Made by a program: the position numbers and the translations under genes | From: Trypanosoma brucei | Taxonomy: Eukaryota | Reading direction: 5' to 3' | Length of the DNA: 64,000 nt | Assembly (NCBI GenBank): GCA_000002445.1 | Contig: CP000071.1 | Location: forward strand, 2,016,001 to 2,080,000 | Shown: piece after piece, positions 1,081-45,902 of the stretch | How positions within the stretch are numbered: position 1 is the first letter of the stretch | Layout of the letters: each line of letters starts with the position of its first letter | Notes under the pieces: model-generated | The model's input: only the letters and a program-made list of their open reading frames with translations | Database searches by the model: none | Told to the model about the DNA's origin: nothing

Positions 1081-1100
1081 TTTCTCCTCCTTTCTTTAAC
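1081..1100 (+). promoter_or_regulatory. polypyrimidine tract, putative trans-splice acceptor signal upstream of the J-domain gene
   Basis: The run 'tttctcctcctttctttaac' lies about 20 nt upstream of the ATG at 1120. Trypanosomatid SL-addition sites are a poly-Y tract followed by AG. Confidence 0.4.
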
Positions 1101-1119
1101 CACAAAGGAACTCTTGACC

Positions 1120-7843: not shown

Positions 7844-9208
7844 ATGCCCATTTCGCAAGTGTTCATCCTTTCTCCTCGTGGTGAGAGAATTGTCTTTAAG
7901 GACTACAAACGAGATGCCCCTTCCAACACCGATGAGACTTTCTTTCGCACTTACAAATTCTGGGATGGAACCCACAGGAGGCTCATTCGGCACTCAGCGC
8001 CTGAGGGCGACTGCCCTCCATTCTTCACGGAAAAGGGTGTACACTTTTGCTTCGTCAAGCGTAACGAACTTCTTTTTGTTTGCACATCGCTGACAAACAC
8101 GTCGCCGAGTCTGACGCTGGACATGCTCCTTCGCATTTTGGAGGTCATCAGGGACTACTTGGGTTCCATCTCAGAAAAAGCAGTGCGACAAAACTTCACG
8201 TTAGTGTACGAGTTGTTGGATGAAGTGCTTGACCTCGGCATACCTCAGGAACTGAGCACGAAACGGCTGCGGCCGTATATTTTTAACGACATCGTTCCTG
8301 TAATGCGGGATAACTTCATATCCATGGATTACCTTGTCGATAGCTTAGGCATCGGGGATATTTTGGAACAGACACGGTGCAGTGATGCAACAGAAACGTC
8401 CGTTATGAAGGCATCTGCGGAGCAGAGAAACGAGATTTATGTGGATTTAATTGAGCGCCTTCATGCCGTATTTGACGCTGCTGGACAGGTGGTGGTGGTA
8501 GGTGTTGATGGCTCAATCGTCATGAAAAGTTTTCTTGTGGGTACCCCAGTTCTTAACCTGTTCTTGAGCGGTGGATTTGGCGTTAGGGGGTATGAGCTTT
8601 CTTCTTCCTTACTTGATTACGTCAACTTCCACGACGAGGCTGACTACAACAAATTCGAGTCTGAGCGACTGCTCTCAATCCACCCACCGGAGGGAGAGTT
8701 CACGCTCATGAGTTATCACTGTAGTATTTCAGCGACCACGATGCCGCTCCATCTCGCACATTCGCTGGTCGAGTTGTCAGAGCATCAGTTAGAACTGGAA
8801 TTGCGCGTGCGGGCGGCTATTCCCGCCGGCCGTTACGCCATAAACGTCACCGTCACTGTTCCTACACCACCGTTCTGTACCGCTGCGGCAGCGGAGCTTA
8901 AGGCGGACGTCTCAGGACAAGCATTTGAGCACAGGAAAGAAGAGTGTTGTGCCGTGTGGAGCATTGAGAAGCTCTTGGGGACGGCCGAAGAGGTCTGCAG
9001 CATTCGTCTCAGTACGGGTACAGCGGTGAAACCGGATGTTCACCGCAAATTAGGCCCCATCTCGGTGGAGTTTGAGGTCCCGCAGTACAGTCTGACAGGT
9101 CTCAGCGTCAAGGCACTGGATATCACAGAGCGTAGCGATGCTTACAACCCGTCACGTTGGATTAGAAACATTGTGTTAGCTGATTCCTACGTATTCCGAA
9201 CACATTGA
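7844..9208 (+). CDS. adaptor protein complex AP-4 mu subunit (454 aa)
   Basis: Strong resemblance to AP-4 mu4 along the whole length. N-terminus 'ISQVFILSPRGERIVFKDYKRD' versus the mu4 consensus '[22 protein letters not shown]'. 'FTLVYELLDEVLDLGIPQ' and 'NEIYVDLIERLHAV' match the longin and mu-homology regions. 'RLLSIHPPEGEFTLMSYHCS' and the C-terminus 'DSYVFR' also match. Confidence 0.8.
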   Translation: MPISQVFILSPRGERIVFKDYKRDAPSNTDETFFRTYKFWDGTHRRLIRHSAPEGDCPPFFTEKGVHFCFVKRNELLFVCTSLTNTSPSLTLDMLLRILEVIRDYLGSISEKAVRQNFTLVYELLDEVLDLGIPQELSTKRLRPYIFNDIVPVMRDNFISMDYLVDSLGIGDILEQTRCSDATETSVMKASAEQRNEIYVDLIERLHAVFDAAGQVVVVGVDGSIVMKSFLVGTPVLNLFLSGGFGVRGYELSSSLLDYVNFHDEADYNKFESERLLSIHPPEGEFTLMSYHCSISATTMPLHLAHSLVELSEHQLELELRVRAAIPAGRYAINVTVTVPTPPFCTAAAAELKADVSGQAFEHRKEECCAVWSIEKLLGTAEEVCSIRLSTGTAVKPDVHRKLGPISVEFEVPQYSLTGLSVKALDITERSDAYNPSRWIRNIVLADSYVFRTH

Positions 9209-9468
9209 AGTGTTTTGTCACTTTTATGGAGTTCTGCACGTCGCAGTGAACGCCGCGATTGGCGGCAAGCTTGTTGAGATTGCTGCTGTCACCACTGTTT
9301 CCTGTGGTTTTCGAGCTTTTATCGTCTCATACTGCTTTATTTGAAATGTATATACGCATATTAGTGTCACCGTCTTATGGCATCCTTTGCTTCCCATTTT
9401 AGTTGTTTCCTCCCCCCTCGTCCAATAAACGAAATAGGTCTCCAACTCAGTTGTCTGGATCGAATACG

Positions 9469-12400: not shown

Positions 12401-14205
12401 GGGCGGAACCGCAAACCACTAATGAGAGGCTGCGCGATGACACCTCCAGTATTGCATTCGAGACACTGTTAGAACCAAATGCCATTGTTGGAGCTACTCC
12501 TTCTGGTTTACAAACAGCGCGGAGGGCGGAACCGCAAACCACTAATGAGAGGCTGCGCGATGACACCTCCAGTATTGCATTCGAGACGCTGTTAGAACCA
12601 AATGCCATTGTTGGAGCTACTCTTTCTGGTTTACAAACAGCGCGGAGGGCGGAACCGCAAACCACTAATGAGAGGCTGCGCGATGACACCTCCAGTATTG
12701 CATTCGAGACGCTGTTAGAACCAAATGCCATTGTTGGAGCTACTCCTTCTGGTTTACAAACAGCGCGGAGGGCGGAACCGCAAACCACTAATGAGAGGCT
12801 GCGCGATGACACCTCCAGTATTGCATTCGAGACACTGTTAGAACCAAATGCCATTGTTGGAGCTACTCCTTCTGGTTTACAAACAGCGCGGAGGGCGGAA
12901 CCGCAAACCACTAATGAGAGGCTGCGCGATGACACCTCCAGTATTGCATTCGAGACACTGTTAGAACCAAATGCCATTGTTGGAGCTACTCCTTCTGGTT
13001 TACAAACAGCGCGGAGGGCGGAACCGCAAACCACTAATGAGAGGCTGCGCGATGACACCTCCAGTATTGCATTCGAGACGCTGTTAGAACCAAATGCCAT
13101 TGTTGGAGCTACTCCTTCTGGTTTACAAACAGCGCGGATTATAACTGCTGATATTTCTGAAGATAGGTGCTCGTGGGTCAACTCCACTGTTTCTCTGGAG
13201 TCGCTATCGGACGCTGGCTTGGGAACGAACAACATCGTAGGGGACTTTATGACGTCCGATGTTATTGTGGACTCTTTGGGGGAGAGCCCGCAAGGAAATA
13301 GTGGTGTCAGAGATGAGGTACAGAGTGAATCGCGTGATACCTTTACTGGTGAATCAAGTCTAACACCGCGCAGTCTGAAAAGCTGCTTTGATAACGGAGA
13401 GACTGATTCGCTGCCGCCCATTTTACGCTCCGGAGCACGCTCGGTGATTGTGCCAAACTCTTCTCGCGTGAGTTTTTCTGGAGCAGGCACTAGGAAAACA
13501 TTATCCGAGGTCAGGCGTCCATCATCGGATAATGGGGACGGTTGCGTCATCTCCACTCGTTCCTCCTCCCCTCGACTGTGGACTCCATCGAAGATACGAA
13601 TTAGGGGAGAGGATATACTGGTTCCGAGGCATCATCGCACAGAAAACAAGGGGGTTAGAGTCGACTCCCCGGCGGGTCGTTCCGTTTTGTCAACATACGC
13701 TACGCTCCGCAATAGAAATTATCTGGGGCTTATGCGACGGTACTTTCTCACCTGGAAAGGGTTGGCAAAGCATTGTACGACACGAACTGCATCCACTATA
13801 GGACAATCACCCACTACCTGTGGAAGTTGTGTGGATGACTCGTCATGTGGCTTTGTTCCCACCACCGCCGTGGTAGCTTCACTTGCCGCAGCCGCAGCCG
13901 CAGCCGCCCCCACCTCCTCCAGAGCACATGGCGTCAACAACCCACACAGTGATCCCTCTAAGATACGTAATCTCACTGCGAGGAGTCTTAAGTTGCTTTT
14001 AGGTGACAACTATCACTCGGCAGATTACGTCTACAATCATTTGCGTAGGAAGCGACTTGGGCAACCAAGGTCCCACTATAGAATGGTGCCACCGGATGAA
14101 GATGATTATGTGTCATCGGGCAGCCGCCACAGGAGCATATGTTCAGCAGAAACAAGCTTTTCGTACCCGTCTGACGATGTGACCACGCCGATATCGATGG
14201 CGTGA
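9469..14205 (+). CDS. large repetitive protein (1,578 aa) containing about 17.7 tandem 41-aa repeats
   Basis: The ORF track starts at a TTG at 9403. The first ATG is at 9469. The N-terminal part, about 500 aa, is Ser/Arg/Pro-rich and non-repetitive. The central array repeats the unit 'RLRDDTSSIAFETLLEPNAIVGAT[L/P]SGLQTARRAEPQTTNE'. The C-terminal 350 aa include an Ala run. Confidence 0.75.
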   Translation: MKGSTSNSALWVTADQRSSERLEEKDVDYSKEPLFFDIPPIQQADAAVRPVKSTRGIPWRRIRESGVIAPDLDLKPPSPIRVVIDIRDKRERKGSKDDGVFAALPPRSGSFSLKSSRDVPGPPKTVEELLGAQWGPQCTGRASSDSETGYVSPSLVEVATTAVTTAAGNKHVNPRFTGDALILRSPRQTRAALLRREFNARTAREKVLSAFAQSTPRSLPTSKRPSIDLSEEYNAVARRRGAWVGVKGFPAAAATCVGSASCLGWPTGLPPRGKSSASPRTMKSATSLPFDPHSVIERNRECDDKRKVQGSSPYLSAVPSPALRGNCSSKKNTGTATNEHVGGPAPRIASCSIASFDDHFSSTSPRKGTVNNENTGKSLTDWPMTSVARRTNVPYELTSSVDSIDTEEFDYEKCLLQKNDHYATQSHGHPGKNRCKHSLGHDNDSCQLNIVEVSDVTEVDGPTKAGQAGHCRHKMNLSTGSCVPFFRELLDGRGKLQDDTSSIAFETLLEPNAIVGATLSGLQTARRAEPQTTNERLRDDTSSIAFETLLEPNAIVGATPSGLQTARRAEPQTTNERLRDDTSSIAFETLLEPNAIVGATPSGLQTARRAEPQTTNERLRDDTSSIAFETLLEPNAIVGATPSGLQTARRAEPQTTNERLRDDTSSIAFETLLEPNAIVGATLSGLQTARRAEPQTTNERLRDDTSSIAFETLLEPNAIVGATPSGLQTARRAEPQTTNERLRDDTSSIAFETLLEPNAIVGATLSGLQTARRAEPQTTNERLRDDTSSIAFETLLEPNAIVGATLSGLQTARRAEPQTTNERLRDDTSSIAFETLLEPNAIVGATPSGLQTARRAEPQTTNERLRDDTSSIAFETLLEPNAIVGATPSGLQTARRAEPQTTNERLRDDTSSIAFETLLEPNAIVGATLSGLQTARRAEPQTTNERLRDDTSSIAFETLLEPNAIVGATPSGLQTARRAEPQTTNERLRDDTSSIAFETLLEPNAIVGATPSGLQTARRAEPQTTNERLRDDTSSIAFETLLEPNAIVGATLSGLQTARRAEPQTTNERLRDDTSSIAFETLLEPNAIVGATPSGLQTARRAEPQTTNERLRDDTSSIAFETLLEPNAIVGATPSGLQTARRAEPQTTNERLRDDTSSIAFETLLEPNAIVGATPSGLQTARRAEPQTTNERLRDDTSSIAFETLLEPNAIVGATPSGLQTARIITADISEDRCSWVNSTVSLESLSDAGLGTNNIVGDFMTSDVIVDSLGESPQGNSGVRDEVQSESRDTFTGESSLTPRSLKSCFDNGETDSLPPILRSGARSVIVPNSSRVSFSGAGTRKTLSEVRRPSSDNGDGCVISTRSSSPRLWTPSKIRIRGEDILVPRHHRTENKGVRVDSPAGRSVLSTYATLRNRNYLGLMRRYFLTWKGLAKHCTTRTASTIGQSPTTCGSCVDDSSCGFVPTTAVVASLAAAAAAAAPTSSRAHGVNNPHSDPSKIRNLTARSLKLLLGDNYHSADYVYNHLRRKRLGQPRSHYRMVPPDEDDYVSSGSRHRSICSAETSFSYPSDDVTTPISMA
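10960..13139 (+). repeat. 123-bp tandem repeat array inside the CDS (about 17.7 copies)
   Basis: Period measured directly. 'gatgacacctccagtattgc' starts at 10960 and recurs at 11083 and every 123 nt thereafter until about 13139. Units differ at only three nucleotide positions: ctt/cct (Leu/Pro), gagacg/gagaca, and acagcg/acagcc. Confidence 0.95.
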
Positions 14206-32671: not shown

Positions 32672-33994
32672 ATGACCGCGCACAAACGTGCAACAAACGG
32701 GGATAATGGACTACCCGTGCCGCCTGTGGACGATGACTCTGAAATTGAAGATCCTCTTGAAGGCATCCTTGGCTCTCGCACCGGTTGCAGGTATGTCAAA
32801 AAAAAGCTGTTGGGTCAAGGAAGTTTTGGAAGCGTGTGGCGGGTGGAGGAAACGGCGACAGGGTCGATCTTTGCAGCAAAGGTGATGGATACAAACAATA
32901 TGAGCGCGAAGGACCGTGGTTTTGTTATAAATGAGGTTAAATGCCTTTCACGCTGCAACAACGCAAATATTATACGCCACCATGCCTCATTCAACCGCGG
33001 TGGGATGCTGCTCATCATCGCGGAGTATGCCGACGGTGGCGACCTCTGCAGGCAAATCAAGGTGCGGCAGCACGCAGGACGGCACTTCAAGGAGCATGAA
33101 GTGTTATACATATTTCTGCAACTATGTCTTGCATTGGATCACATCCACGGCAATAACATGATGCACCGCGACCTTAAGTCTGCCAACGTACTGCTTACCA
33201 CAATGGGCCTTGTGAAGTTGGGTGACTTTGGCTTCAGTCGTCAATACGAGGACTCGCTGTCAAATCCTGTTGGCACTACTTTCTGTGGGACGCCATATTA
33301 TTTGAGCCCCGAACTCTGGCGCCGCGCGCCGTACAGCAAAAAGAGTGAAATGTGGGCTCTTGGTGTGGTGTTGTATGAAGTGATGATGTTGAAGCGACCT
33401 TTTGGTGGACGTAATATGGATGAGCTCATCAACAATATTGTCCATGCCCGCCGCGCCCCGCTTCCAAATATGTACTCGGATGAACTGCGTCGAGTGTGTG
33501 ATCAGTTGCTTTCTCTCGATCCAGCTAAACGGCCGTCACTGCGACAGCTCTTCCAACAGCCTTTCATTCGCCGTGGCTTAGACTCACTGCGACGAAGTGT
33601 GGAGACGCACAAAAAAATTCCACCAAGAACCTTCAGCGAGATTGCACGAAACATTGATGAGGTGTTGAGACCTGGTCTCCCGGAGTATCGGGGGAGTAGT
33701 GTAACGCCTCATCGTGGGATGTTGCAACGTCACACCGCGGATCGTGGTTGGAAGGATTGCGAGCTTTCACTAAACGCTGGCGGTGTTTCAATGCGAGATG
33801 TAGAAACTGGTGGCGTTGAAACGGTGAATCTTGAAACCCTCACATCCGTCTGTCCCGTAGACGCGGCAACCGCTCAGGAGAAATATGTTTTCGCTCTTAA
33901 GAATCAAACAGGAAAGGCGTATTGGTTTAAGGACCTTGCAGAGGATTCATACGATTATTGGATTTCCGCCCTTCAGAAAGCCATATCGCATTGA
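32672..33994 (+). CDS. NIMA-related (NEK) Ser/Thr protein kinase with a C-terminal PH-like domain (440 aa)
   Basis: Kinase subdomains present: 'LGQGSFGSVWRV', 'AAKVMD', 'HRDLKSANVLL', 'DFGFSRQ', 'GTPYYLSPELW'. The C-terminal 100 aa ('VFALKNQTGKAYWFKDLAEDSYDYWISALQKAI') fit a PH-domain fold. Confidence 0.8.
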   Translation: MTAHKRATNGDNGLPVPPVDDDSEIEDPLEGILGSRTGCRYVKKKLLGQGSFGSVWRVEETATGSIFAAKVMDTNNMSAKDRGFVINEVKCLSRCNNANIIRHHASFNRGGMLLIIAEYADGGDLCRQIKVRQHAGRHFKEHEVLYIFLQLCLALDHIHGNNMMHRDLKSANVLLTTMGLVKLGDFGFSRQYEDSLSNPVGTTFCGTPYYLSPELWRRAPYSKKSEMWALGVVLYEVMMLKRPFGGRNMDELINNIVHARRAPLPNMYSDELRRVCDQLLSLDPAKRPSLRQLFQQPFIRRGLDSLRRSVETHKKIPPRTFSEIARNIDEVLRPGLPEYRGSSVTPHRGMLQRHTADRGWKDCELSLNAGGVSMRDVETGGVETVNLETLTSVCPVDAATAQEKYVFALKNQTGKAYWFKDLAEDSYDYWISALQKAISH

Positions 33995-33999
33995 GTGGT

Positions 34000-35962
34000 T
34001 CCCTCTTTTTTGTTTTTTTTTTTCTTGTCCTTCTTCTTCCTTTTTTTTCCCCCATCTTTTTTCCCTCTTTCATTTCTTCTTTCAGTTTTGTGGCATTTGG
34101 TGTGTAATGATTGGAACGTTGGAACACAAGACGAGTTGAAATGACAAGAAAATATGTCTTTAGTTTTAGCCCCATTTCCCCTCAGTAAAAAAAAAAAAGT
34201 CTATCAAAAGCAGCGTTACCGGTGGATGAGAGGTGCTTTCTTTTTCTTTTTTTTCTTTTTTTCTTTTCTTTCTTTTTTTTTCTTTTTTTTTTTTTACTGG
34301 AAACACAAGGGTAATAATTAGCAAAAAAAAAAAAGATGACAAATAATATTGGAAACATTTGTTTTAAATGTATACATGACCAGAATTTTCTTCTGTTTTT
34401 TTTTCTTTTTACCGCGTGCCCTTATGCATGGAAATGGGAAATTACCAATTACACTTACTGCACACATGTTAATCGGATAAAGGAAGGGTTGAGGAAAAGA
34501 AACAAATAAATAGCACTCGAGCGAAAGAGAAAAAGTAAAATAAAATAAAATAAAATAGAAAGAAAATAAATAAATAAAAGAGATGCAAGAATTAAAATGA
34601 AAACGATAATAACACTTACAGTTCCGATGAAACGGAGGGAATGTATAATAAATAGCGAAAACAAAAGATGAGGGGACAAAAAGTAATGTTACAGATTACA
34701 AATCAAACATTACTTGAAGGATGAGGAAAATTTGTTGTTGTTGTTTTTGTTGTTTCGCATTGCTGGAAGAAGAGGGGAAAAAAAGCAATGGGAAATTAGA
34801 AAGTAGGAATGAAATGAAATGAAATGAAATGAAATAAAAGCAAAAGGGAAACCGTATACGTGTTTAACCGGTGTATTTCAAGGGATTTAACAAGGAGCAA
34901 AATTACATCCATAAAAGAAAACGGACAAACAAATCATAAGGAATAGGGGAAAAGAAAAAAGGAAGAAGAAAAAAGAAAAAGGAAGCAGCATTTAACGGAT
35001 TAATGCTTACATTCATATTTATATATATTTATTTCTTTTTTTTTTTTGATGTTGGGTTGGGTGACTGTATTTCCTTAATTTTCTTCTTTTTTTTTTTGTT
35101 TGTTTGGACAAAACCCATCAGGTTATATGCTCAGTACTGCTACCGTCATTACACTGGTGGTTTCTTTTGTTTCTTGTCTCATTTTCACTCAACCCCCGAT
35201 GTTCCATATTTCACCTTTTGTTGTTTTTGCTGCTGTTTTGTTTTTTTTTTCCTTCTTTTTTTTAAAAAAATTTTATCTTACCTTATCTTATCTTATCTTT
35301 TTTTCTCTTTATTTGACTTGTCTTATTTATGCTTATTTGCTGCGACTGTTTCTTGTTTGTTTTGTTTTGCATTTTTTTTTTCACCTCTTTATTCTTCTTT
35401 AGCAGGCGTTGTTTATTATTTCATTTGGTCTCATTCCTAAGCGTATAACTTGTGCATGTGTGTAGAGGCGTGGCGGACAATCTTTTTCTCTTTTTTTTTT
35501 CTTATTATTCTGTGTTGTATTTTCACTGTTGTTTTATATCTTCTTGTTTATTAATGAATTTGACTAGATGGGGGAAATAAACCGAAACTTATGAATGAAT
35601 AAATGGAGTGAATTTCCCAACAACGACGAAAGCGATCATGTAAATATATTTGTGCACTTGTATGTAAAAAAATAAATAAATAAATAATAATAATAATAGT
35701 ATATATAAAAGGGAGGAGAAAAGGAAACAATTGTTGTATTTATATTGCTTCCTCAACATGAGAAGGAGGTGTTGACTGAAAAAAATTCCAAAAATAAAAA
35801 TAAAAAGATAAAATAAAATAGAAGAGGGAAGTGTGCAATGGTAAAGGGTGTAAAGGGAAAATAGCGATAGAAAGTCGTAGTGTTCGGTGCCACCGTAATT
35901 CTCCTTTTGCTTATTTGCTTTTTAATTTTTACTTTTTACTTTTTTGACTTGTTTTGTTTTGT

Positions 35963-36011
<49 letters not shown>

Positions 36012-37350
36012 TTTGGTCTAGCGTATACGTACATATGTTATATGTATCGCCATATGGAGAAGAAGAAAAAAAGGGGGGAAAAGGAACATTCCGTATAACT
36101 CAATTTCTGCTCGTACAGGCATTTGTGTTTTCTTTTTTTATTGTTTTTATTGTTTTGTTGTTTGTGTTTTGCGTGTGTCCGAATTCGGCTCATCGTACCT
36201 TTGGTTACTGTGGGCTTTTGTTGTGTATTCTTCGCGTTGCGGATTCCTTTTTTTTTTGTTTTGTTTTGTTTCTTGCTGCGGTTTCGTCTTTGGCTGACTT
36301 GTGACCTCCCCCCCCCCCCCACCCCCTCACCATTTGTTTCTTGGATGCTTTTAATCCTTCATTTTTTTCTTTCTTTTTTTTTTTCCTTTCATTCCCCATG
36401 ATGGATGTGATGTGATATCTTTCCATCACTTACACTCTCCCAACCAAATCGTCACCGCGCTCATGAAAGAACTGCTTCGTGTTCTCCTCAGAGTGTTGTT
36501 GTTTTTTATTTTTGTTGTTTTTTTTTGTTTTTGCTGTTGCTTAATCCTTAGTGTTTTATCTTTACATAAGTTTTTTTTGTGTGTGTGTATATGCGTGGAT
36601 TTCAAAGAAAATGGAAAACAAATACATGATTGAAGAGATGCTAAGACGATGTGTCTTCCGCCCTTTCATTTCACTTCATGTTTGTTTGCTGTGTTGTTGT
36701 TGTTGTTGTTGTTTTCTTCTTCGTCCTCGCCCGTCTGTTGTTTGTTTGTTTTTTTTTCTTTTGGTTGTTGTTGTTGTTATACGTCTCTCTTTCTTCCCAC
36801 CGGTACACTTGAAATGAATGGAATAGTTCCGGTGTGCTCAGGCATGAGTGAGAAAATAAACAAAAAGCGGATGAATGCCACGGATGTGCACTCTCATTCG
36901 CTTTTTAAAGGTGCGCATTCCCAATGTTGCGGGTTTGTGTGTGCTCTTCCGGTCCCCCGTAATTCTCCTTTATTTCAACATCTTTCTTTCTCTTCAACAC
37001 TTGTTTGTCTTTTGTGCGTGTGTGTTTGGTTTTGGTTTTGGTTTTGGTTTTTTTTTGTGCCTCAACGTGTTTCTGCGACGCGCTCCGGCACAATAGACGA
37101 GGAAGAAAGGAAGACACTCAAGCAGAAAAACAGCACGGTGGAACTACGAGAGGAGTTTCCAGCTCTTGTCCCGAAAATTTGCTACATTTCGTTGAAGTAA
37201 GGAGACACAAAAGAAAAAAAAGAAGGAAGTAGAGCAAAGCAAACGGCAGCGAGAACGTCCCACTGATTCTTCTTTGCTTCGCGACTGTACTGGAAAACTG
37301 TTGAAAAGAAGAACATAACATCACAGTGAACTGCATACGCTGTCCTTTCC
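34000..37350. repeat. 3.4 kb low-complexity, microsatellite-dense region with no credible ORF
   Basis: Elements seen:
- T and A homopolymer runs
- (TAAAA)4 at about 34536-34556
- (GAAAT)5 at 34811-34835
- TnAn junction at about 35258
- (TTATC)n at about 35276-35300
- (TTG)~16 at 35964-36010
- C13 at 36308-36320
- (GTT)~8 at 36693-36716
- (TTTGG)5 at about 37024-37050
All ORFs in this region translate to low-complexity F, L, V, C or K runs on either strand. Confidence 0.85.
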
Positions 37351-37437: not shown

Positions 37438-38808
37438 ATGGATTACGTTAGCGAATTGTACGCCATGATCCGCGTACGGTGGCAGATGCGGAGGATGGCG
37501 GGGGAATTGCAGGCGGACGACGAGGACCTCCGTTTCTGTTATGATGTGCTGCGTGACGTGTCGCGCTCCTTCGCTCTCGTCATTATGCAACTGAAAGCTG
37601 CTCTTCGTGATGCTGTATGTGTTTTTTATCTCGTTCTGCGAGCCCTTGACACGGTGGAGGATGACATGCAACTGCCGCTTGAGTTCAAACTGCGGGAACT
37701 TCCGCTTTTTCATACGCGGCTGCACGATCACACGTGGCGGTTGGATGGAGTCGGTGAGGGTCGAGAACGGGAGTTGCTTCAGAAATTCCCTCATGTTTCA
37801 GCCGCCTTCTCCCGCCTGGACCCGTCATTTCAAAGTGTGATTGAAGACATATGCAGACGGATGGCTGATGGCATGTGCGACTTCCTCCAGCGCACCGACA
37901 CCTGCAAAGCAAATAACAAAGAAATCAGTGAGGATAATTGTCATGATGGCAAAAGTGAGAAGAGTGCTGTGGAGACTCGGGAGGACTTTGATTTGTACTG
38001 TCACTACGTTGCCGGTCTGGTGGGACTTGGACTCACGCAACTTTTCGTTCGAAGTGGTCTTGAGAAGGCGGCACTTGAGGAAAACATGACGCGCGCCAAC
38101 CACATGGGTCTATTGCTGCAGAAAACGAATATTATTCGCGACTTCTACGAGGACATTTGTGAGAGCCCGCCTCGCGTGTTTTGGCCGCGCGAAATATGGG
38201 GACAGTACACCGACGACCTCCATGCATTTAAGGGAATAACGCGACCGACCAATGGATCTAATGACACCGCTTGCGGTGAAGGTAGAAAGTATAGTGACGA
38301 AGAAAAGGAGATCATTAAGTCCAAGGCGGTGGATTGCCTTAACGCGATGGTGGCAGACGCCCTGGTGCATTTACCACCAGTTATCGAATACCTCGCAGAG
38401 CTGCGTGATCCCACTGTTTTTGCATTTTGCGCAATCCCGCAGGTGATGGCTGTGGCGACATTAGCACTGGTCTTTGACAACCCTGATGTGTTCCATAGCA
38501 GGGTGAAGCTCACGCGTGGCGCCACGTGTAAAATCATCCACAACGCCACCGAGTTGTCTGCTGCGCTGAAGCTCGTGAGGACATATGCTCAAAAGTTACT
38601 TGCAAGCGCGCATGCCGGCGTTGCCAGCCATGAGGCGGTAGCGCAGTCCCTGCAGGTTGCCATTAAGACAATGGATGAGCAGGTGTTGCGACACAATACC
38701 AAGCTGGTGGAAGGACCGACACGGCGAGTGCTGGCGCAGTATTCCGCATTGGGAGGCGGGCTTCTGCTCAAAGTTGTCGACGGTGTCTTCGGTTATTTGG
38801 GCAGGTGA
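37438..38808 (+). CDS. SQS: squalene synthase (farnesyl-diphosphate farnesyltransferase), 456 aa
   Basis: The ORF track starts at a TTG at 37363. The ATG at 37438 gives 'MDYVSELYAMIR...'. Squalene/phytoene synthase signatures present: 'FYLVLRALDTVEDD' (first Asp-rich motif), 'YCHYVAGLVGLGL', 'NIIRDFYED'. A C-terminal hydrophobic tail is present. Confidence 0.85.
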   Translation: MDYVSELYAMIRVRWQMRRMAGELQADDEDLRFCYDVLRDVSRSFALVIMQLKAALRDAVCVFYLVLRALDTVEDDMQLPLEFKLRELPLFHTRLHDHTWRLDGVGEGRERELLQKFPHVSAAFSRLDPSFQSVIEDICRRMADGMCDFLQRTDTCKANNKEISEDNCHDGKSEKSAVETREDFDLYCHYVAGLVGLGLTQLFVRSGLEKAALEENMTRANHMGLLLQKTNIIRDFYEDICESPPRVFWPREIWGQYTDDLHAFKGITRPTNGSNDTACGEGRKYSDEEKEIIKSKAVDCLNAMVADALVHLPPVIEYLAELRDPTVFAFCAIPQVMAVATLALVFDNPDVFHSRVKLTRGATCKIIHNATELSAALKLVRTYAQKLLASAHAGVASHEAVAQSLQVAIKTMDEQVLRHNTKLVEGPTRRVLAQYSALGGGLLLKVVDGVFGYLGR

Positions 38809-41112: not shown

Positions 41113-41459
41113 TTGTTGATCACAGCAAAGAATGCCGTACAATTGAAAAAATCTCGGACTAAGCGGACTTTCCTGGTGTACCGCCACCAAAGGGGCGCGT
41201 GTATCCGCTATCTTCACTTTTTGCACTCCTTGCTTTCCTCACACAGAGGTCGCGTTTAAAGGCTGGGACGTCCATCCGTAGTGACTATCAGGGCGTCCCT
41301 TTCTCTAATTCCACGGATGAAAATGCGTTTTGCGGGTTGGCGCACTTTGGTGTGATGTGCTGGACGCAAATATGCCCTGCGCGTCCGTCTCCTGAGCAGC
41401 CCTTGCTGGAGCAGCAACAAGATCTGTCGAACGATCCCCTTCTCTTACGTTCTCTAGGG

Positions 41460-42650
41460 ATGAGGACAAGGCGTCGTAGGTCACAGGTTTATGCTTTCAC
41501 ACTTGCAGTCCTCATTGCAATATCATGTTTGGTAGTGTGTTGTGATCTCTTCTTTCTTAGCGTTATCCATTTACCGTTAGAAGAGGAAAAGGCGTCTGCA
41601 CCTATCAACGTGGACGAGTGCCTGAGGCTCACTGCCCCGAGCACCGTCAGCATTTGGCAAGAGCGTGAGTTTCTAGTGATTGTTGGCATACCCTCTGTTG
41701 ATAGGGACGAGTGGCAGAAGCGACGGAACCTTCAACGGCGGACTTGTTGGCAATACGCTGGCGTGGCTACCTTAGAAAACAACTTTACAGGTGAGCTTCT
41801 CCCGCTGTACCTCCTCGCACCACATCAATTAAACGGGTACGAAATCTCAGAATCGCTGCGGGATGAGGCTTCACGAACAAATGACGTGGTTATGCTTCCA
41901 ACCAATGATGTGTGCTCGTTTTCACGAAGGAAAATTGGTGAAGGTGGAAGCTGGGGAGTTGAGTCAGAGCTTGTGATGAGCCGCAAGACCTTCCTTTGGC
42001 TTCAGTTTGCCGTTACCGCCTTTCCAAATGTAAGTTATATTGTGAAAGGTGACGACGATGTGTTTGTCCGTGTACCGCAGTATCTCGCGGACCTCCGTGT
42101 GATGCCTCGTAATGGATTATATATGGGCCGTGTCTATGGTGCCACATTCTTCTGGAGGTCGGGTGGGATACCATTCGCTGCAGGATACTTCACTACCTTT
42201 TCCAGGGATGTTGCAGAAGCTGTTGCCTCCTACAGGCCTCTTGAACGACTTTTGAAGGCACCCTACTCCATATGGCGTATGAGGCAGTACCTTTCCATGA
42301 GTGTGTTGCATGAGGATGTAATGACCGCTTTAGTGCTGCAAGATAAGATCAGGTATAAGGGCCTGATTATTGTTGACGCCGCACCTTGTCACTTTCATAA
42401 CGCAGGCAAGAAAGGTATCAGAGCATCCTTAATTGATGAGTACGTAGTAGTCCACCATATAAAGGAAAATGACTACGAGGTCCTTATGAACCATTTTGCT
42501 GATATTGCGGTGCAGCCTAAGCCATCAAAAGTCATGTGGAGAAGTGAAAACTATGCAGTCATGCAGTGTTTTGCGACTCTAAGACTAAGGAGAAGTGCGT
42601 TGCTCGCTCTTTTATCTGCGTTAGGTACTACTTTCCGTCGGCACCCTTAG
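41460..42650 (+). CDS. UDP-sugar-dependent glycosyltransferase, beta-1,3-galactosyltransferase-like (GT31-like), type II membrane topology; paralog 1
   Basis: The ORF track starts at a GTG at 41199. In-frame ATGs are at 41355 and 41460. I chose 41460, which gives a short Arg-rich tail followed by the transmembrane stretch 'VYAFTLAVLIAISCLVVCC', mirroring paralog 2. Catalytic region contains 'FLVIVGIPSVDRDEWQKRRNLQRRTCW' and the DxD-type motif 'IVKGDDDVFV'. This is the family of trypanosomatid Golgi glycosyltransferases. The start-codon choice is uncertain. Confidence 0.7.
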   Translation: MRTRRRRSQVYAFTLAVLIAISCLVVCCDLFFLSVIHLPLEEEKASAPINVDECLRLTAPSTVSIWQEREFLVIVGIPSVDRDEWQKRRNLQRRTCWQYAGVATLENNFTGELLPLYLLAPHQLNGYEISESLRDEASRTNDVVMLPTNDVCSFSRRKIGEGGSWGVESELVMSRKTFLWLQFAVTAFPNVSYIVKGDDDVFVRVPQYLADLRVMPRNGLYMGRVYGATFFWRSGGIPFAAGYFTTFSRDVAEAVASYRPLERLLKAPYSIWRMRQYLSMSVLHEDVMTALVLQDKIRYKGLIIVDAAPCHFHNAGKKGIRASLIDEYVVVHHIKENDYEVLMNHFADIAVQPKPSKVMWRSENYAVMQCFATLRLRRSALLALLSALGTTFRRHP

Positions 42651-43143
42651 TGCGGTGTCATACCGCTATTATTCACACTTCCCCACATGTCTGTCGATCA
42701 TTTGCCGCTCTTTTGGGTCTATTGGTGCCAGTCGATACCCGTGATTAATAGGGATGTCAATTCCCTCATTAATTTCCGCCTGTTGTCCCCCTTGATGGAA
42801 TTGCTCATGCGTTGTTGGCGCGCCGCGGCACCCCGCTAACCAGCGGGACGTCTCTCTCTCTTTACCGGATAAAGTGAGGCGATTACTTTTCACCAGGAGT
42901 TTGTTATTACCTTGACGACTTGTTTTTCTCCGATAAATACTTCACATTTCCGATTGTAAGAATATGTCGACTGTGCTCTTCTAATCATGTGTCACACAGG
43001 TTTCCGCAGGTGGGTTGGGGGAGGTAACGTGTGCTAACACAGTGCCTTGTTGGTTCCACGATGCCTCGCTGCTGATCAACGGGCTGTGCAAATCCCTGTT
43101 TCATGCTTATTTTGTTTTATTTTTTCGCCAATTACCTCCAGAT

Positions 43144-44274
43144 ATGACACAAAGGAAAGTGTACCCGCCTTACTCGTGGAGGAAACCGCGCGCTTCCGTC
43201 TTGGTGCTGACGACCACCTTTACAATGGCCCTCATCATTATAATGTGGGACATTTACCACATTTCGGAGGTGCATTCGAACAGCAGTTATGATCTCTTAG
43301 GCACGTTTGAAAATGACTATTACTTGACGCTCACTCCCCCGAGCACCGTCAGCATTTGGCAAGAGCGTGAGTTTCTAGTGATTGTTGGCATACCCTCTGT
43401 TGATAGGGACGAGTGGCAGAAGCGACGGAACCTTCAACGGCGGACTTGTTGGCAATACGCTGGCGTGGCTACCTTAGAAAACAACTTTACAGGTGAGCTT
43501 CTCCCGCTGTACCTCCTCGCACCACATCAATTAAACGGGTACGAAATCTCAGAATCGCTGCGGGATGAGGCTTCACGAACAAATGACGTGGTTATGCTTC
43601 CAACCAATGATGTGTGTTCTCTCGCACGAAGGAAAATTGGTGAAGGTGGAAGCTGGGGAGTTGAGTCAGAGCTTGTGATGAGCCGCAAGACCTTCCTTTG
43701 GCTTCAGTTTGCCGTTACCGCCTTTCCAAATGTAAGTTATATTGTGAAAGGTGACGACGATGTGTTTGTCCGTGTACCGCAGTATCTCGCGGACCTCCGT
43801 GTGATGCCTCGTAATGGATTATATATGGGCCGTGTCTATGGTGCCACATTCTTCTGGAGGTCGGGTGGGATACCATTCGCTGCAGGATACTTCACTACCT
43901 TTTCCAGAGATGTTGCAGAAGCTGTTGCCTCCTACAGGCCTCTTGAACGACTTTTGAAGGCACCCTACTCCATATGGCGTATGAGGCAGTACCTTTCCAT
44001 GAGTGTGTTGCATGAGGATGTAATGAGTGCTTTAGTGCTGCAAGATAAGATCAGGTATAAGGGCCTGATCATTGCCAACGCAGCAGGGTGTCACTTTCAC
44101 AACAAAGCAAAAGAAGACATCAGGGAGGCAGTGAGCAATAGATCTGTTGTAGTCCACCATATAAGGGAAGAAGACTACGAGGTTCTGATGGATCATTTTT
44201 CTAACATTTCGGAACGACCTCAGCCATACGGCGTCAGGTGGCTACGGAATGACCGCGCTATGGTTCTGTGCTAA
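43144..44274 (+). CDS. UDP-sugar-dependent glycosyltransferase, beta-1,3-galactosyltransferase-like; paralog 2 (376 aa)
   Basis: The ORF track starts at a TTG at 43015. The ATG at 43144 gives 'MTQRKVYPPYSWRKPRASVLVLTTTFTMALIIIMW', a cytoplasmic tail plus signal anchor. About 750 bp of the catalytic core are near-identical to paralog 1 at the nucleotide level. Confidence 0.8.
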   Translation: MTQRKVYPPYSWRKPRASVLVLTTTFTMALIIIMWDIYHISEVHSNSSYDLLGTFENDYYLTLTPPSTVSIWQEREFLVIVGIPSVDRDEWQKRRNLQRRTCWQYAGVATLENNFTGELLPLYLLAPHQLNGYEISESLRDEASRTNDVVMLPTNDVCSLARRKIGEGGSWGVESELVMSRKTFLWLQFAVTAFPNVSYIVKGDDDVFVRVPQYLADLRVMPRNGLYMGRVYGATFFWRSGGIPFAAGYFTTFSRDVAEAVASYRPLERLLKAPYSIWRMRQYLSMSVLHEDVMSALVLQDKIRYKGLIIANAAGCHFHNKAKEDIREAVSNRSVVVHHIREEDYEVLMDHFSNISERPQPYGVRWLRNDRAMVLC

Positions 44275-44867
44275 CTTAACCCGGTGCCTCGAAGAGACAC
44301 GCGTTTTACTCACCCCTATTTTTTTCTTAACATTTGTTGGTTAGCGGTTTATATGTTTTTTATAATTTTTTGACATGAGTCTATCTATTTGTTTATTTAT
44401 TGCGATTATTTGTTTTATTTTCATCGTCATACCAAGTGGCAGTGTTCGCATACCTGGAAGGTGATGTAACAGCGCTGAAACTTTTGTTTGACCTCCGTGT
44501 ATCTCATTATTTGTCGAGTTTCCATGCACACGACCGCATAACCACACCATGCATGGTGGCTTGTGTTCTTATCTTCCTTTAAGTGGAGCACGTCCAAACC
44601 TCCTTGTGTATACATCCTGTTAGGAGTATGAGCAATTGGTGAATCAAGCACAACCCAGTGATGTGGGTTGTTGTGCAAAGACGTAACGCTGTATAATAGA
44701 AATGTGCCCTTTATGGGTAACAGAGTAGTGTTTTGAACAACTTTCTCGCCTTGCTCTCTCATCCCTTGTTCATTCCCCTCCAATCATGTGACAGCATTTA
44801 GTGTTACCCATTGAGATGACGTTTTGAAAGATGTACTGGACTACACTTTAATTGCAGAAATACTTTG

Positions 44868-45902
44868 GTACCGTTAGAAGAGGAAAAGGCGTCTGCACCT
44901 ATCAACGTGGACGAGTGCCTGAGGCTCACTGCCCCGAGCACCGTCAGCATTTGGCAAGAGCGTGAGTTTCTAGTGATTGTTGGCATACCCTCTGTTGATA
45001 GGGACGAGTGGCAGAAGCGACGGAACCTTCAACGGCGGACTTGTTGGCAATACGCTGGCGTGGCTACCTTAGAAAACAACTTTACAGGTGAGCTTCTCCC
45101 GCTGTACCTCCTCGCACCACATCAATTAAACGGGTACGAAATCTCAGAATCGCTGCGGGATGAGGCTTCACGAACAAATGACGTGGTTATGCTTCCAACC
45201 AATGATGTGTGTTCTCTCGCACGAAGGAAAATTGGTGAAGGTGGAAGCTGGGGAGTTGAGTCAGAGCTTGTGATGAGCCGCAAGACCTTCCTTTGGCTTC
45301 AGTTTGCCGTTACCGCCTTTCCAAATGTAAGTTATATTGTGAAAGGTGACGACGATGTGTTTGTCCGTGTACCGCAGTATCTCGCGGACCTCCGTGTGAT
45401 GCCTCGTAATGGATTATATATGGGCCGTGTCTATGGTGCCACATTCTTCTGGAGGTCGGGTGGGATACCATTCGCTGCAGGATACTTCACTACCTTTTCC
45501 AGGGATGTTGCAGAAGCTGTTGCCTCCTACAGGCCTCTTGAACGACTCTTGAAGGCACCCTACTCCATATGGCGTATGAGGCAGTACCTTTCCATGAGTG
45601 TGTTGCATGAGGATGTAATGAGTGCTTTAGTGCTGCAAGATAAGATCAGGTATAAGGGCCTGATTATTGTTGACGCCGCACCTTGTCACTTTCATAACGC
45701 AGGCAAGGGTGATGTTGCGCAACACTTTACGAGTGTGTGTCTTCCGCCATGTGATGGAAAGTTAGGGCCATTTCTACGCACGATTCGCCGGCGTTTTGGT
45801 GGAACGGCAAAGCTTCCTTGTTGGCCTGAGGAAGAGAATAATTATTTAACCAGAAATTCACCGGTATATATCGTTTACGTTATCCATCCAGTTAAACCGT
45901 AG
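44868..45902 (+). pseudogene. 5'-truncated glycosyltransferase paralog 3, probable pseudogene or gene fragment
   Basis: Homology to paralog 1 begins abruptly at 'taccgttagaagaggaaaagg' (44868, matching 41573). There is no upstream ATG and no signal-anchor-coding segment. The ORF track had to start at a TTG. The 3' end diverges after '...HFHNAGK' into an unrelated reading frame ending at 45902. The core is mosaic between paralogs 1 and 2. Confidence 0.5.

What the first reader, a model, noticed from the sequence alone, without database searches (positions are those of the whole stretch)
41199..45902. Tandem triplet of beta-1,3-galactosyltransferase-like genes with mosaic gene conversion and a 5'-truncated third copy
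Three paralogs share a catalytic core of about 750 bp that is almost identical at the nucleotide level. Core offsets are 1,709 bp and 1,594 bp. Their flanks and N- and C-terminal coding ends are unrelated.

The pattern of the few differences is mosaic:
- Copy 3 matches copy 1 at its 5' end ('PLEEEKASAPINVDECLRLTAPSTV', absent from copy 2).
- Copy 3 matches copy 1 again at 'GLIIVDAAPCHFHNAGK'.
- Copy 3 matches copy 2 at 'SLARRK' (copy 1 has 'SFSRRK') and at 'MSALVL' (copy 1 has 'MTALVL').

This implies patchwork gene conversion between neighbours. Copy 3 lacks any ATG and signal anchor upstream of the homology breakpoint at 44868, and it switches into an unrelated C-terminal frame. It looks like a decaying or donor copy.

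In T. brucei this glycosyltransferase family diversifies glycan structures (N-glycan, GPI side-chain and poly-LacNAc elaboration). Mosaic arrays are a plausible engine for acceptor-specificity diversification.
Basis: partly seen in the sequence, partly recalled or inferred. Interest (0 to 1): 0.6.

Follow-up and report, generated by a model that had tools for sequence, protein, structure and literature searches.

The report
Trypanosome glycosyltransferase triplet homogenised by gene conversion
Three neighbouring glycosyltransferase genes on Trypanosoma brucei chromosome 8, one of them a truncated dead copy, keep nearly identical catalytic cores by repeatedly copying sequence from one another; this is a real and clean case of a process already well documented in trypanosome gene arrays.

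Summary
The window is T. brucei brucei TREU927 chromosome 8. It carries two full-length GT67 (beta-3-GT-like) genes, c1 at 41460-42650 and c2 at 43144-44274, plus a fragment, c3, whose homology block is 44869-45707.

All three share a 733-bp core that differs at only 2-8 sites. c1 and c3 share 839 bp with sharp edges.

- Outside the core, copies group by position (0-2 mismatches per 100 bp between orthologues).
- Inside the core, copies group by genome. Three sites are fixed in all three copies of one genome against all three of the other, and no site supports positional orthology.
- 10 of 36 site pairs fail the four-gamete test.
- Synonymous divergence between c1 and c2 jumps from 0.036 in the core to 1.43 in the tail.

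This is concerted evolution by gene conversion among tandem paralogues.

c3 has no start codon, no membrane anchor and no conserved C-terminal motifs, yet conversion keeps its core intact.

The evidence shows homogenisation, not diversification. Core boundaries recur at the same codons in the chromosome 4 paralogous array and, at the 5' end, in T. congolense.

The mechanism is well known in trypanosome arrays (Jackson 2007; Pereira and Jackson 2018). This is a new member of a known kind, of low to moderate interest.

The parts
41460..42650 (+). c1: full-length GT67 glycosyltransferase gene, 396 aa (XP_847544.1). It is probably Tb927.8.7140; that ID is inferred from the literature and was not confirmed by a tool.
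   Evidence: 100% identical to P0001, T. b. brucei TREU927, on a 2,481,190-bp contig. PF01762 hit at 26 bits against a cutoff of 23. AF2 model: TM helix at residues 7-35, then a GT-A domain whose best Foldseek match is human B3GNT2 (E 3e-11).
43144..44274 (+). c2: full-length GT67 gene, 376 aa (XP_847545.1)
   Evidence: Exact match to P0026. PF01762 hit. Its gambiense orthologue is P0002 at the syntenic position.
44865..45902 (+). c3: open frame with no start codon, judged a pseudogene fragment. The in-frame TGA is at 44817-44819 and the first in-frame ATG is at 45189.
   Evidence: Its product is absent from the protein collection for TREU927. The gambiense annotation calls only the 237-aa product from the internal ATG (P0013). 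It lacks the TM anchor and the family-invariant tail residues V329, E336, Y339, F346 and P355.
41635..42367 (+). Three-way converted core, copy in c1 (aa 59-303). It contains the WG, YIVKGDDD and EDVM(T/S)A motifs.
   Evidence: c1 differs from c2 and from c3 at 8 of 733 sites each; c2 and c3 differ at 2 of 733. dS for c1-c2 is 0.036 here.
43337..44069 (+). Three-way converted core, copy in c2
   Evidence: Register +1702.
44932..45664 (+). Three-way converted core, copy in c3
   Evidence: Register +3297.
41572..41634 (+). 5' block shared only by c1 and c3 (c3 44869-44931). It is identical within each genome and co-varies between genomes at 41597 and 41634.
   Evidence: b1-b3 0 mismatches, g1-g3 0 mismatches, and b versus g 2 mismatches in both copies.
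42368..42410 (+). 3' block shared only by c1 and c3 (c3 45665-45707). It ends abruptly at 42410|42411.
43617..43624 (+). Multi-nucleotide variant cluster: TGCTCGTTTTCA becomes TGTTCTCTCGCA (SFS to SLA). It is shared by TREU927 c2 and c3 (c3 45212-45219) and absent from TREU927 c1 and from all three gambiense copies.
   Evidence: The 21-mer occurs only at these two places in the window.
44027..44028 (+). Second shared variant: ACC becomes AGT (Thr to Ser) at the X position of the ED(V)(M)X(A) motif. It is present in c2 and c3 (c3 45622-45623) only.
42368..42545 (+). c1 tail, which has escaped conversion. It is still homologous to the c2 tail (44070-44247) but anciently diverged.
   Evidence: dS 1.43 and dN 0.30. 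50% protein identity. A 96-nt stretch at 76% identity.
45708..45902 (+). c3-specific 64-codon tail with no detectable homologue apart from its gambiense orthologue
   Evidence: Exhaustive phmmer returned only P0013. Comparison with GT67 C-termini was not significant (family-wise shuffle p about 0.16). P(open by chance) is about 0.044.

Best explanation
This is a tandem array of three paralogues of the kinetoplastid GT67 (beta-3-glycosyltransferase-like) family on T. brucei chromosome 8. Their catalytic cores evolve in concert through repeated non-reciprocal gene conversion between neighbouring copies.

c1 and c2 are old duplicates with saturated synonymous divergence in their C-terminal tails and N-terminal anchors that cannot be aligned. 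A tract of about 730 bp covering the start of the folded GT-A domain through the ED motif is overwritten again and again, so it stays about 99% identical.

Conversion tracts stop where flanking divergence is already too high to support heteroduplex formation. This is an inference. It would keep the boundaries sharp and place them at the same codons in other arrays of the family.

c3 is a gene fragment with no start codon, no signal anchor and no conserved C-terminal motifs. It predates the brucei/gambiense split and still takes part in the exchange, so its 839-bp core stays intact although it cannot encode an enzyme.

Shown: the array structure, positional orthology of the flanks, grouping by genome in the core, site incompatibilities, the dS discontinuity, and the truncation of c3.

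Inferred: the molecular mechanism (homologous-recombination repair using a neighbouring copy), the homology-limited boundaries, and non-expression of c3.
For: - Identity of the locus: 100% match to a TREU927 protein; accessions; Pfam; GT-A fold resembling B3GNT2, B3GalT5 and B3GalT6.
- Synteny: the gambiense locus is colinear at 98.6% over 15,040 bp and has the same three copies.
- Distance matrices: in 100 bp 5' and 130 bp 3' of the core, orthologues differ by 0-2 sites while paralogues differ by 42-91. In the 733-bp core, g1/g2/g3 differ by 2-3 and b2-b3 by 2, whereas b2-g2 differ by 13 and b3-g3 by 12.
- Informative events in the core: of 9, none supports positional orthology and 3 (41658, 41876, 41942) are fixed bbb versus ggg. 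10 of 36 pairs fail the four-gamete test, and Hudson-Kaplan Rm = 3.
- Edge blocks: the c1/c3-only blocks co-vary by genome at 41597 and 41634.
- Synonymous divergence: dS for c1-c2 is 0.036 in the core and 1.43 in the tail.
- c3 truncation.
- Generality: the gambiense chromosome 4 paralogous array has a 764-bp core at 99.7% identity bounded at the aligned codons. The T. congolense syntenic array has the same 5' boundary and all four combinations of two N-terminal types and two tail types.
- Literature: concerted evolution by conversion among tandem duplicates is widespread in T. brucei (PMC1855330). Concerted evolution is noted for GT67 lineages 1 and 7 (PMC5853035).
Against: - Only two complete genomes could be compared, so tract lengths, direction and rate are poorly constrained.
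- The donor of the two multi-nucleotide variants shared by TREU927 c2 and c3 is unknown. Nothing else in the window carries them.
- Site 42251 alone accounts for 7 of the 10 incompatible pairs, so part of the incompatibility signal rests on one site that could be a recurrent mutation.
- Pereira and Jackson report that T. brucei lineage 7 genes 'rarely recombine'. This locus disagrees with that general statement, although their test used four randomly chosen genes per lineage.
- The reference sequences are assemblies of diploid genomes. Mis-phasing of variants inside a repeat cannot be excluded without the reads.
Confidence: 0.88

Rival explanations
1. Modular diversification. The array works as a cassette system in which conversion and recombination reassort the N-terminal anchor, the catalytic core and the C-terminal tail, and c3 is a silent donor that feeds new variants into expressed genes to diversify acceptor specificity.
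For: - In T. congolense the syntenic array contains all four combinations of two N-terminal and two tail types.
- Core boundaries recur at the same codons in three arrays.
- The SLA and Ser variants are non-synonymous multi-nucleotide changes next to the WG motif and inside the ED motif, and they are shared by the pseudogene and a functional gene.
- The variable tail (aa 304-370) is part of the globular GT-A domain.
Against: - In T. brucei the visible effect is homogenisation: 2-8 differences in 733 bp.
- No reassortment of ends is seen between brucei and gambiense. The flanks are strictly orthologous.
- The direction of transfer between c2 and c3 is unknown.
- Pereira and Jackson found no positive selection in the family.
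- No functional data exist for these genes.
Confidence: 0.1
2. Recent duplication without conversion. The three cores are similar simply because they were duplicated recently.
For: High core identity on its own.
Against: - All three copies, each with its own unique flanks, exist in both brucei and gambiense, so they predate that split. Yet core sites are fixed by genome across the paralogues.
- The c1-c2 tails have dS 1.43 against 0.036 in the core of the same gene pair.
- An array already exists at the syntenic T. congolense locus.
Confidence: 0.02
3. Purifying selection alone keeps the catalytic cores identical.
For: The core holds all three family signature motifs and most invariant residues.
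Against: - Synonymous sites are also nearly identical (dS 0.036 against 1.43).
- The pseudogene c3, which cannot be under selection as an enzyme, is just as identical.
- Orthologous cores differ more than paralogous ones.
Confidence: 0.01
4. Assembly or phasing artefact. The fine-scale mosaic (which copy carries which variant) results from mis-assigning reads or haplotypes within a repeat.
For: - Short-read T. equiperdum OVI contigs break inside the core, exactly at the SFS/SLA cluster. This shows the region is hard to assemble.
- The T. evansi paper notes that glycosyltransferase loci are difficult to assemble.
Against: - Two separate reference assemblies give the same three-copy structure with different, internally consistent variant sets.
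- Every diagnostic site lies within about 450 bp of a copy-specific flank, which is within reach of Sanger reads (an inference from the coordinates).
- The bbb|ggg sites do not depend on phasing at all.
Confidence: 0.05
5. c3 is not a pseudogene. It is expressed, for example as the 237-aa product from ATG 45189 that is annotated in gambiense, or as a regulatory RNA.
For: - The frame is open for 345 codons, including 64 codons beyond the homology (P about 0.044 by chance).
- Gambiense annotates a 237-aa protein here.
- The array lies inside a single + strand polycistronic unit, so c3 is probably transcribed.
Against: - It has no TM anchor or signal.
- The internal ATG at 45189 starts the product at the position equivalent to c1 residue 145. 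That removes the first strands of the nucleotide-binding fold, including the invariant GIPS segment (c1 residues 76-79), and the conserved VVxHH...E..Y..F..P tail is also missing.
- The core frame could be kept open by conversion alone.
- The only pyrimidine run of 10 nt or more in the 594 bp between the c2 stop and c3 is a weak 10-nt tract that lies more than 500 bp upstream of the c3 frame.
Confidence: 0.1

Closest known systems
Concerted evolution of tandem gene arrays in T. brucei by gene conversion among tandem duplicates (Jackson 2007, BMC Evol Biol 7:54, PMC1855330)
   Same: Intraspecific duplicates group by genome. Different regions of an array give inconsistent phylogenies. [quoted passage not shown] That survey's table already lists a UDP-GlcNAc-dependent glycosyltransferase array.
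   Different: The chromosome 8 triplet is not named in the text I could search. Here the tract edges are mapped to the base, a truncated pseudogene is shown to take part, and the boundaries are shown to recur in the chromosome 4 array and, at the 5' end, in T. congolense.
GT67 / UGT family evolution in trypanosomatids (Pereira and Jackson 2018, PMC5853035; review PMC9472816)
   Same: Same gene family. Concerted evolution is noted for lineages 1 and 7, and recombination with three GARD breakpoints was found in T. congolense.
   Different: They state that T. brucei lineage 7 genes rarely recombine and that the expansion is not driven by gene conversion. This locus shows clear conversion since the brucei/gambiense divergence. 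I did not test which of their lineages these genes belong to. Their paralogy to Tb927.4.5240-5300 suggests lineage 7.
Chromosome 4 / chromosome 8 duplicon of T. brucei (Jackson 2007, BMC Genomics 8:432, PMC2212663)
   Same: Tb927.8.7140 is listed there as the chromosome 8 glycosyltransferase paralogue of Tb927.4.5240/5300, with divergent coding and non-coding sequence. The chromosome 4 array shows the same pattern of a homogenised core with variable tails.
   Different: That paper looked for conversion between the two chromosomes and found none. What is described here is conversion within each array.
Human GT31 beta-1,3-glycosyltransferases (B3GNT2, B3GalT5, B3GalT6)
   Same: GT-A fold, DDD (DXD) metal and nucleotide motif, and type II membrane topology. 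These are the best structural matches to the c1 model (E 3e-11, about 310 aligned columns, 17-21% identity), and B3GNT2 is also the best sequence match among solved structures (E 0.005).
   Different: Sequence identity is below 21%. GT67 is a separate CAZy family restricted to kinetoplastids, and its members carry out activities that other eukaryotes assign to several different GT families (PMC9472816). The donor and acceptor of c1 and c2 are unknown.
Pseudogene-involving gene conversion systems (VSG mosaic formation in T. brucei; human CYP21A2/CYP21A1P) - from my own knowledge and PMC1855330 section 12
   Same: A non-functional neighbouring copy exchanges sequence with functional genes by conversion.
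   Different: There is no evidence here of programmed or selected diversification. The direction of transfer is unknown, and the net effect seen is homogenisation.

Membership tests
GT67 / beta-3-glycosyltransferase superfamily | Three signature motifs: WG; Y(I,V,F)XKXDDD; ED(A/V/I/L/M)(M/L)X(G/A) (PMC9472816) | tested here: met
   c1, c2 and c3 all contain GGSWG, YIVKGDDD and EDVM(T/S)A (translations). W165, G166, Y193, K196 and D198-200 are invariant in the 19-sequence alignment.
GT67 / beta-3-glycosyltransferase superfamily | Significant profile match to Galactosyl_T (PF01762) | tested here: met
   26-26.5 bits against a gathering cutoff of 23 for all three. The match is short, covering profile positions 64-101 around the DDD motif.
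GT67 / beta-3-glycosyltransferase superfamily | GT-A fold | tested here: met
   c1 AF2 model (mean pLDDT 70.7, pTM 0.71). Foldseek top hits are human B3GNT2, B3GalT5 and B3GalT6 (E 3e-11 to 1e-9, TM 0.45-0.66). Model confidence is only moderate.
GT67 / beta-3-glycosyltransferase superfamily | Type II membrane topology: short cytoplasmic tail followed by an N-terminal signal anchor | tested here: met
   This applies to c1 and c2 only. c1 has a predicted helix at residues 7-35 after MRTRRRR. c2 has the hydrophobic stretch VLVLTTTFTMALIIIMW after basic residues. c3 does not meet this feature: it has no ATG and no hydrophobic anchor upstream.
GT67 / beta-3-glycosyltransferase superfamily | UDP-Gal or UDP-GlcNAc transferase activity | not testable with these tools
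   No biochemical data were found for these genes. The only functional note found is an RNAi fitness defect restricted to differentiation, reported for Tb927.8.7140 (PMC6199001).
Concerted evolution by interlocus gene conversion | Within the tract, paralogues in one genome are more alike than orthologues between genomes, while the flanks keep positional orthology | tested here: met
   distance matrices; no informative site in the core supports orthology and 3 are fixed by genome.
Concerted evolution by interlocus gene conversion | Discontinuity of synonymous divergence along one gene pair | tested here: met
   dS for c1-c2 is 0.036 in the core and 1.43 in the tail.
Concerted evolution by interlocus gene conversion | Phylogenetic incompatibility between nearby sites (four-gamete test) | tested here: met
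   10 of 36 pairs are incompatible and Rm = 3 within 733 bp. Seven of the 10 pairs involve the single site 42251.
Concerted evolution by interlocus gene conversion | Copy number and flanks unchanged, meaning non-reciprocal transfer and not unequal crossing-over | tested here: met
   Both genomes have the same three copies with the same unique flanks, colinear over 15 kb.
Processed or decaying pseudogene (for c3) | Disabling mutations (stops, frameshifts) accumulating inside the homologous region | tested here: not met
   There is no stop or frameshift across the 839-bp homology. c3 is disabled by truncation at both ends, not by internal decay.
Truncated (unitary-fragment) pseudogene (for c3) | Loss of the start codon and of essential domains | tested here: met
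   In-frame TGA at 44817-44819 and first ATG at 45189. c3 lacks the TM anchor and the family-invariant residues V329, E336, Y339, F346 and P355.
Truncated (unitary-fragment) pseudogene (for c3) | No mature mRNA or protein | not testable with these tools
   No spliced-leader, RNA-seq or proteomic data are available here.

The most novel reading that the evidence does not exclude
The N-terminal anchor/stem, the catalytic core and the C-terminal tail of lineage-7-type GT67 genes behave as three exchangeable cassettes, with junctions conserved between T. brucei chromosome 8, chromosome 4 and T. congolense. Selection maintains these junctions so that arrays can reassort localisation and acceptor modules around a common donor-binding core. 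The start-less c3 copy would be a silent cassette that seeds multi-nucleotide variants (SFS to SLA next to the WG motif; Thr to Ser inside the ED motif) into expressed genes, making it a small-scale analogue of VSG mosaic formation applied to glycan-building enzymes.
Probability: 0.08. Interest if true: 0.55.

Novelty: new member of a known kind. Interest (0 to 1): 0.25.

Why it matters
Practical points:
- c1 and c2 encode enzymes with identical donor-binding and catalytic cores but different anchors and C-terminal 60-80 residues. Any functional difference between them must lie in those ends, which makes tail-swap experiments straightforward to design.
- Short reads, RNAi fragments, probes or CRISPR guides aimed at the core will hit all three copies. 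Only the ends are copy-specific. These are 41460-41571 and 42411-42650 for c1, roughly 43144-43314 and 44113-44274 for c2, and 45708-45902 for c3.
- Phylogenies of the GT67 family built on whole genes mix a young, homogenised core with ancient ends. [quoted passage not shown]

Conceptual point: the locus is a clean textbook example of conversion keeping a pseudogene core intact. It qualifies the published statement that T. brucei GT67 genes rarely recombine. It does not reveal a new mechanism.

Tried and rejected
1. Is the c3 tail a decayed GT67 C-terminus? tblastn extended weakly into it for the T. congolense proteins P0005 and P0009 (HF..PP..IR..G.TA.LPC with a 21-residue gap). A family-wise shuffle test gave p of about 0.16, so this is not established.

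2. A word-index homology search with the 64-aa tail returned nothing. It failed its own positive control, because P0013 contains the tail exactly, so I discarded the result. The exhaustive phmmer search found only P0013, plus two repeat-driven short-stretch hits that I regard as spurious.

3. Other GT fragments or a donor for the SLA/Ser variants in the window: none.

4. A third complete genome. Exact-protein look-ups with four flanking genes (IMPase-like, the 209-aa protein, squalene synthase, VPS11) returned only fragmented T. equiperdum OVI contigs and short Logan contigs. The chromosome-level assembly GCA_003543875.1, seen for chromosome 4, could not be reached for chromosome 8. OVI gives partial copies only, and they are assembled through a repeat, so I treat its extra mosaic as suggestive (OVI c3 has SLA but ACC).

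5. Trans-specific orthology of tail types. I expected the c1 and c2 tails to pair with particular T. congolense tails. Identities are only 31-40%, so this is not demonstrable.

6. One search used the wrong reading frame when locating c3's upstream stop and first ATG (it reported 44812 and 45160). One search corrects this to TGA 44817-44819 and ATG 45189.

7. TM-like remnant upstream of c3. The only hydrophobic stretch that follows an ATG (about 44370-44460, out of frame with c3) is T-rich UTR-like sequence roughly 400-500 bp upstream. That is too far for a signal anchor, so I rejected it.

8. Gene IDs. I could not confirm Tb927.8.7140/7150/7160 with a tool. They are inferred from the neighbouring genes named in papers.

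Full report
**What is there**

The window is Trypanosoma brucei brucei TREU927. The product of 41460-42650 is 100% identical to a TREU927 protein on a 2,481,190-bp contig. Its accession is XP_847544.1, and the next gene's product is XP_847545.1. Every ORF of 220 aa or more in this part of the window lies on the + strand, consistent with one polycistronic unit.

Three ORFs carry Galactosyl_T (PF01762) hits just above the gathering score:
- c1: 41460-42650, 396 aa.
- c2: 43144-44274, 376 aa.
- c3: an open frame at 44865-45902 that has no ATG start.

Papers place a NEK kinase at Tb927.8.7110 and a UDP-GlcNAc-dependent glycosyltransferase at Tb927.8.7140, within the chromosome 4 / chromosome 8 duplicon. 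The kinase, squalene-synthase and 209-aa genes upstream of the array, and the inositol-phosphatase-like and VPS11 genes downstream of it, fit that placement. The genes are therefore probably Tb927.8.7140-7160, but that is my inference and was not confirmed by a tool.

**Checking the observation**

The three copies align without gaps at offsets of +1702 and +1595.

- All three are nearly identical over c1 41635-42367 (733 bp).
- c1 and c3 match over 41572-42410 (839 bp). Identity drops to random within one base at both ends.
- c1 and c2 have N-terminal regions that cannot be aligned. Their tails remain homologous, at 50% protein identity, with a 96-nt stretch at 76%.
- Within the core, c1 differs from c2 and from c3 at 8 sites each. 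c2 and c3 differ at 2 sites.

c3 has an in-frame TGA at 44817-44819 and no in-frame ATG before 45189. An earlier attempt used the wrong frame and should be ignored.

**Why three sequences are not enough, and what settles it**

With three sequences, each variable site is just a change on one branch of a star tree. 'c3 matches c2 here' could mean only that c1 changed privately.

I therefore fetched the syntenic T. b. gambiense DAL972 locus (L001). It is colinear at 98.6% over 15,040 bp and holds the same three copies with the same unique flanks. The six-way comparison is decisive:

- Just outside the core, orthologues differ by 0-2 sites and paralogues by 42-91.
- Inside the core, the three gambiense copies differ from one another by 2-3 sites and TREU927 c2-c3 by 2. 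By contrast c2 differs from its own orthologue by 13 sites and c3 from its orthologue by 12.
- Of nine informative events in the core, none supports positional orthology.
- Three sites (41658, 41876, 41942) are fixed in all three TREU927 copies against all three gambiense copies.
- 10 of 36 pairs of events fail the four-gamete test (Hudson-Kaplan Rm = 3). Seven of those ten pairs involve the single site 42251.
- The two multi-nucleotide variants occur only in TREU927 c2 and c3. These are TGCTCGTTTTCA to TGTTCTCTCGCA (SFS to SLA) and ACC to AGT (Thr to Ser). TREU927 c1 and all three gambiense copies have the other state.
- The short blocks shared only by c1 and c3 also co-vary by genome (41597, 41634). 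Exchange between c1 and c3 therefore reaches the very edges of c3.

Copy number and flanks are unchanged. The process is non-reciprocal conversion, not unequal crossing-over.

**Conversion, not selection or recent duplication**

For the c1-c2 pair, synonymous divergence is 0.036 in the core and 1.43 in the adjoining tail. Non-synonymous divergence is 0.007 against 0.30. Selection on the protein cannot erase synonymous differences, and it cannot act on c3 as an enzyme.

The array is also old. The syntenic T. congolense contig (L003) carries four full-length GT genes directly upstream of the same inositol-phosphatase-like gene.

**What c3 is**

c3 lacks a start codon and a signal anchor. It also lacks the tail residues that are invariant across 19 family members from four species: V329, E336, Y339, F346 and P355. 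The same truncated structure is present in gambiense, where annotation calls only a 237-aa product from the internal ATG. The TREU927 product is not in the protein collection.

Its 64-codon tail has no homologue apart from its gambiense orthologue in an exhaustive search of 1.84 billion representative proteins. A weak resemblance to one T. congolense tail type is not significant (p about 0.16).

In T. congolense, the array member next to the phosphatase-like gene is full length, and the spacing is similar. From the core's 3' edge to the phosphatase start is about 1.07 kb in T. brucei. From the equivalent point to the phosphatase start in T. congolense is about 1.2 kb. My preferred reading is that c3 is the remnant of an ancestral third gene that was disabled at both ends. 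A partial duplication of c1 is not excluded.

Either way, c3's core has no internal lesions, and the ongoing exchange with c1 and c2 explains this. It is a truncated pseudogene kept intact by conversion, not a decaying one.

**Where the boundaries fall**

An AlphaFold2 model of c1 has mean pLDDT 70.7 and pTM 0.71, which is moderate confidence. It places a TM helix at residues 7-35 and a low-confidence stem at 34-48, followed by a folded domain from about residue 50 to 370. Its best structural matches are human B3GNT2, B3GalT5 and B3GalT6 (E 3e-11 to 1e-9, about 310 aligned columns).

The three-way core (aa 59-303) starts where the folded domain starts and ends just after the helix that carries the ED motif. 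The unconverted tail (aa 304-370) is part of the same globular domain.

The same boundaries recur elsewhere:
- In the gambiense chromosome 4 paralogous array, two adjacent genes share 764 bp at 99.7% identity. The block is bounded at codons that align to within one or two residues of the chromosome 8 boundaries (with the alignment).
- In the T. congolense syntenic array, the 5' boundary falls in the same alignment window.

T. congolense also shows all four combinations of two N-terminal types and two tail types. This matches the recombination breakpoints reported by Pereira and Jackson.

The simplest explanation is an inference: conversion needs high local identity. Fast-evolving anchors, stems and tails drop below that threshold, while the constrained core stays above it, so the boundary reinforces itself and lands at the same place in every array. 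A selected 'cassette' architecture is the more exciting alternative, but nothing here requires it.

**Extra, weaker evidence**

T. equiperdum OVI contigs anchored in the unique flanks break inside the core, exactly at the SFS/SLA cluster. The OVI c3 carries SLA but ACC (not AGT), and T at 42251, which would be one more recombinant arrangement. That stretch was assembled through a repeat from short reads, so I treat it only as suggestive.

**Comparison with what is known**

- Jackson (2007) surveyed T. brucei tandem arrays and concluded that concerted evolution through conversion among tandem duplicates is widespread. The survey found that homogenisation and differentiation coexist within single loci. 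A UDP-GlcNAc-dependent glycosyltransferase array is in the survey table.
- Pereira and Jackson (2018) noted concerted evolution in GT67 lineages 1 and 7. They detected recombination only in T. congolense and wrote that T. brucei lineage 7 genes rarely recombine.
- No searchable paper mentions Tb927.8.7150 or Tb927.8.7160.

The mechanism and the family are therefore both known. What this locus adds:
- A base-resolved example.
- A participating pseudogene.
- Recurrent boundaries.
- A qualification of the 'rarely recombine' statement.

**Verdict**

The finding is real and the main interpretation is right. Its logic is strengthened by the gambiense comparison. The functional speculation about diversification is not supported at this locus. 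It is a new member of a known kind, of low to moderate interest (0.25).

Noticed in passing
window 34000-37100: An unusually long (about 3 kb) AT-rich intergenic stretch (GC about 0.29-0.33, against about 0.50 elsewhere) lies between the NEK-type kinase gene (32672-33994) and the squalene synthase gene (37438-38808). It contains poly-T/CT tracts, (AAAAT)n, (AATGA)n and (TTG)n microsatellites. The gene spacing is the same in T. b. gambiense (L001).
   Followed up: partly
L003 (T. congolense CAEQ01001893.1) 742-10060: The syntenic T. congolense array has four full-length GT67 genes that carry all four combinations of two N-terminal types and two C-terminal tail types. It also has a 257-aa fragment of the inositol-phosphatase-like gene (2057-2830) duplicated into the array between the first and second GT.
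   Followed up: partly
L006 (T. b. gambiense chr 4, FN554967.1) 8424-9187 and 10181-10944: The chromosome 4 paralogous GT array shows the same architecture: a 764-bp core at 99.7% identity with different tails. The upstream copy (336 aa) lacks the N-terminal anchor, and its homology starts exactly at the core boundary. There are no Ns there, so this is not an assembly gap.
   Followed up: partly
L008 end (= window 41914) and L007 start (= c1 coordinate 41877): T. equiperdum OVI contigs terminate within 38 nt of the SFS/SLA variant cluster, which looks like an assembly-graph bubble. The OVI c3 combines SLA with ACC at 42325-42326 and T at 42251, an arrangement not seen in TREU927 or gambiense.
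   Followed up: partly
window 42570-42647 (c1 residues 371-396): After the conserved C-terminal Cys, c1 has a 26-residue extension (FATLRLRRSALLALLSALGTTFRRHP) that is predicted helical (residues 371-387). c2 lacks it. The chromosome 4 paralogue P0003 has a different basic extension at the same place. Its function is unknown; it could be a second membrane-associating segment.
   Followed up: no
window 44427-44783 (- strand); L001 11284-11619: A 118-aa minus-strand ORF lies between c2 and c3. Its counterpart in T. b. gambiense is annotated as a 111-aa protein (apparently CBH13798), although it sits antisense within a + strand polycistron and has no Pfam hit. It is probably a spurious gene call.
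   Followed up: no
window 9403-14205 (+) overlapping 9552-10511 (-) and 10875-13556 (-): A 1600-aa + strand ORF overlaps long antisense ORFs (319 aa and 893 aa). This suggests strongly biased or repetitive codon composition in that gene.
   Followed up: no
tool behaviour: The word-index protein search returned no candidate for the 64-aa c3 tail, although P0013, which is in the same collection, contains that tail exactly. Short queries can therefore fail silently with that tool.
   Followed up: yes
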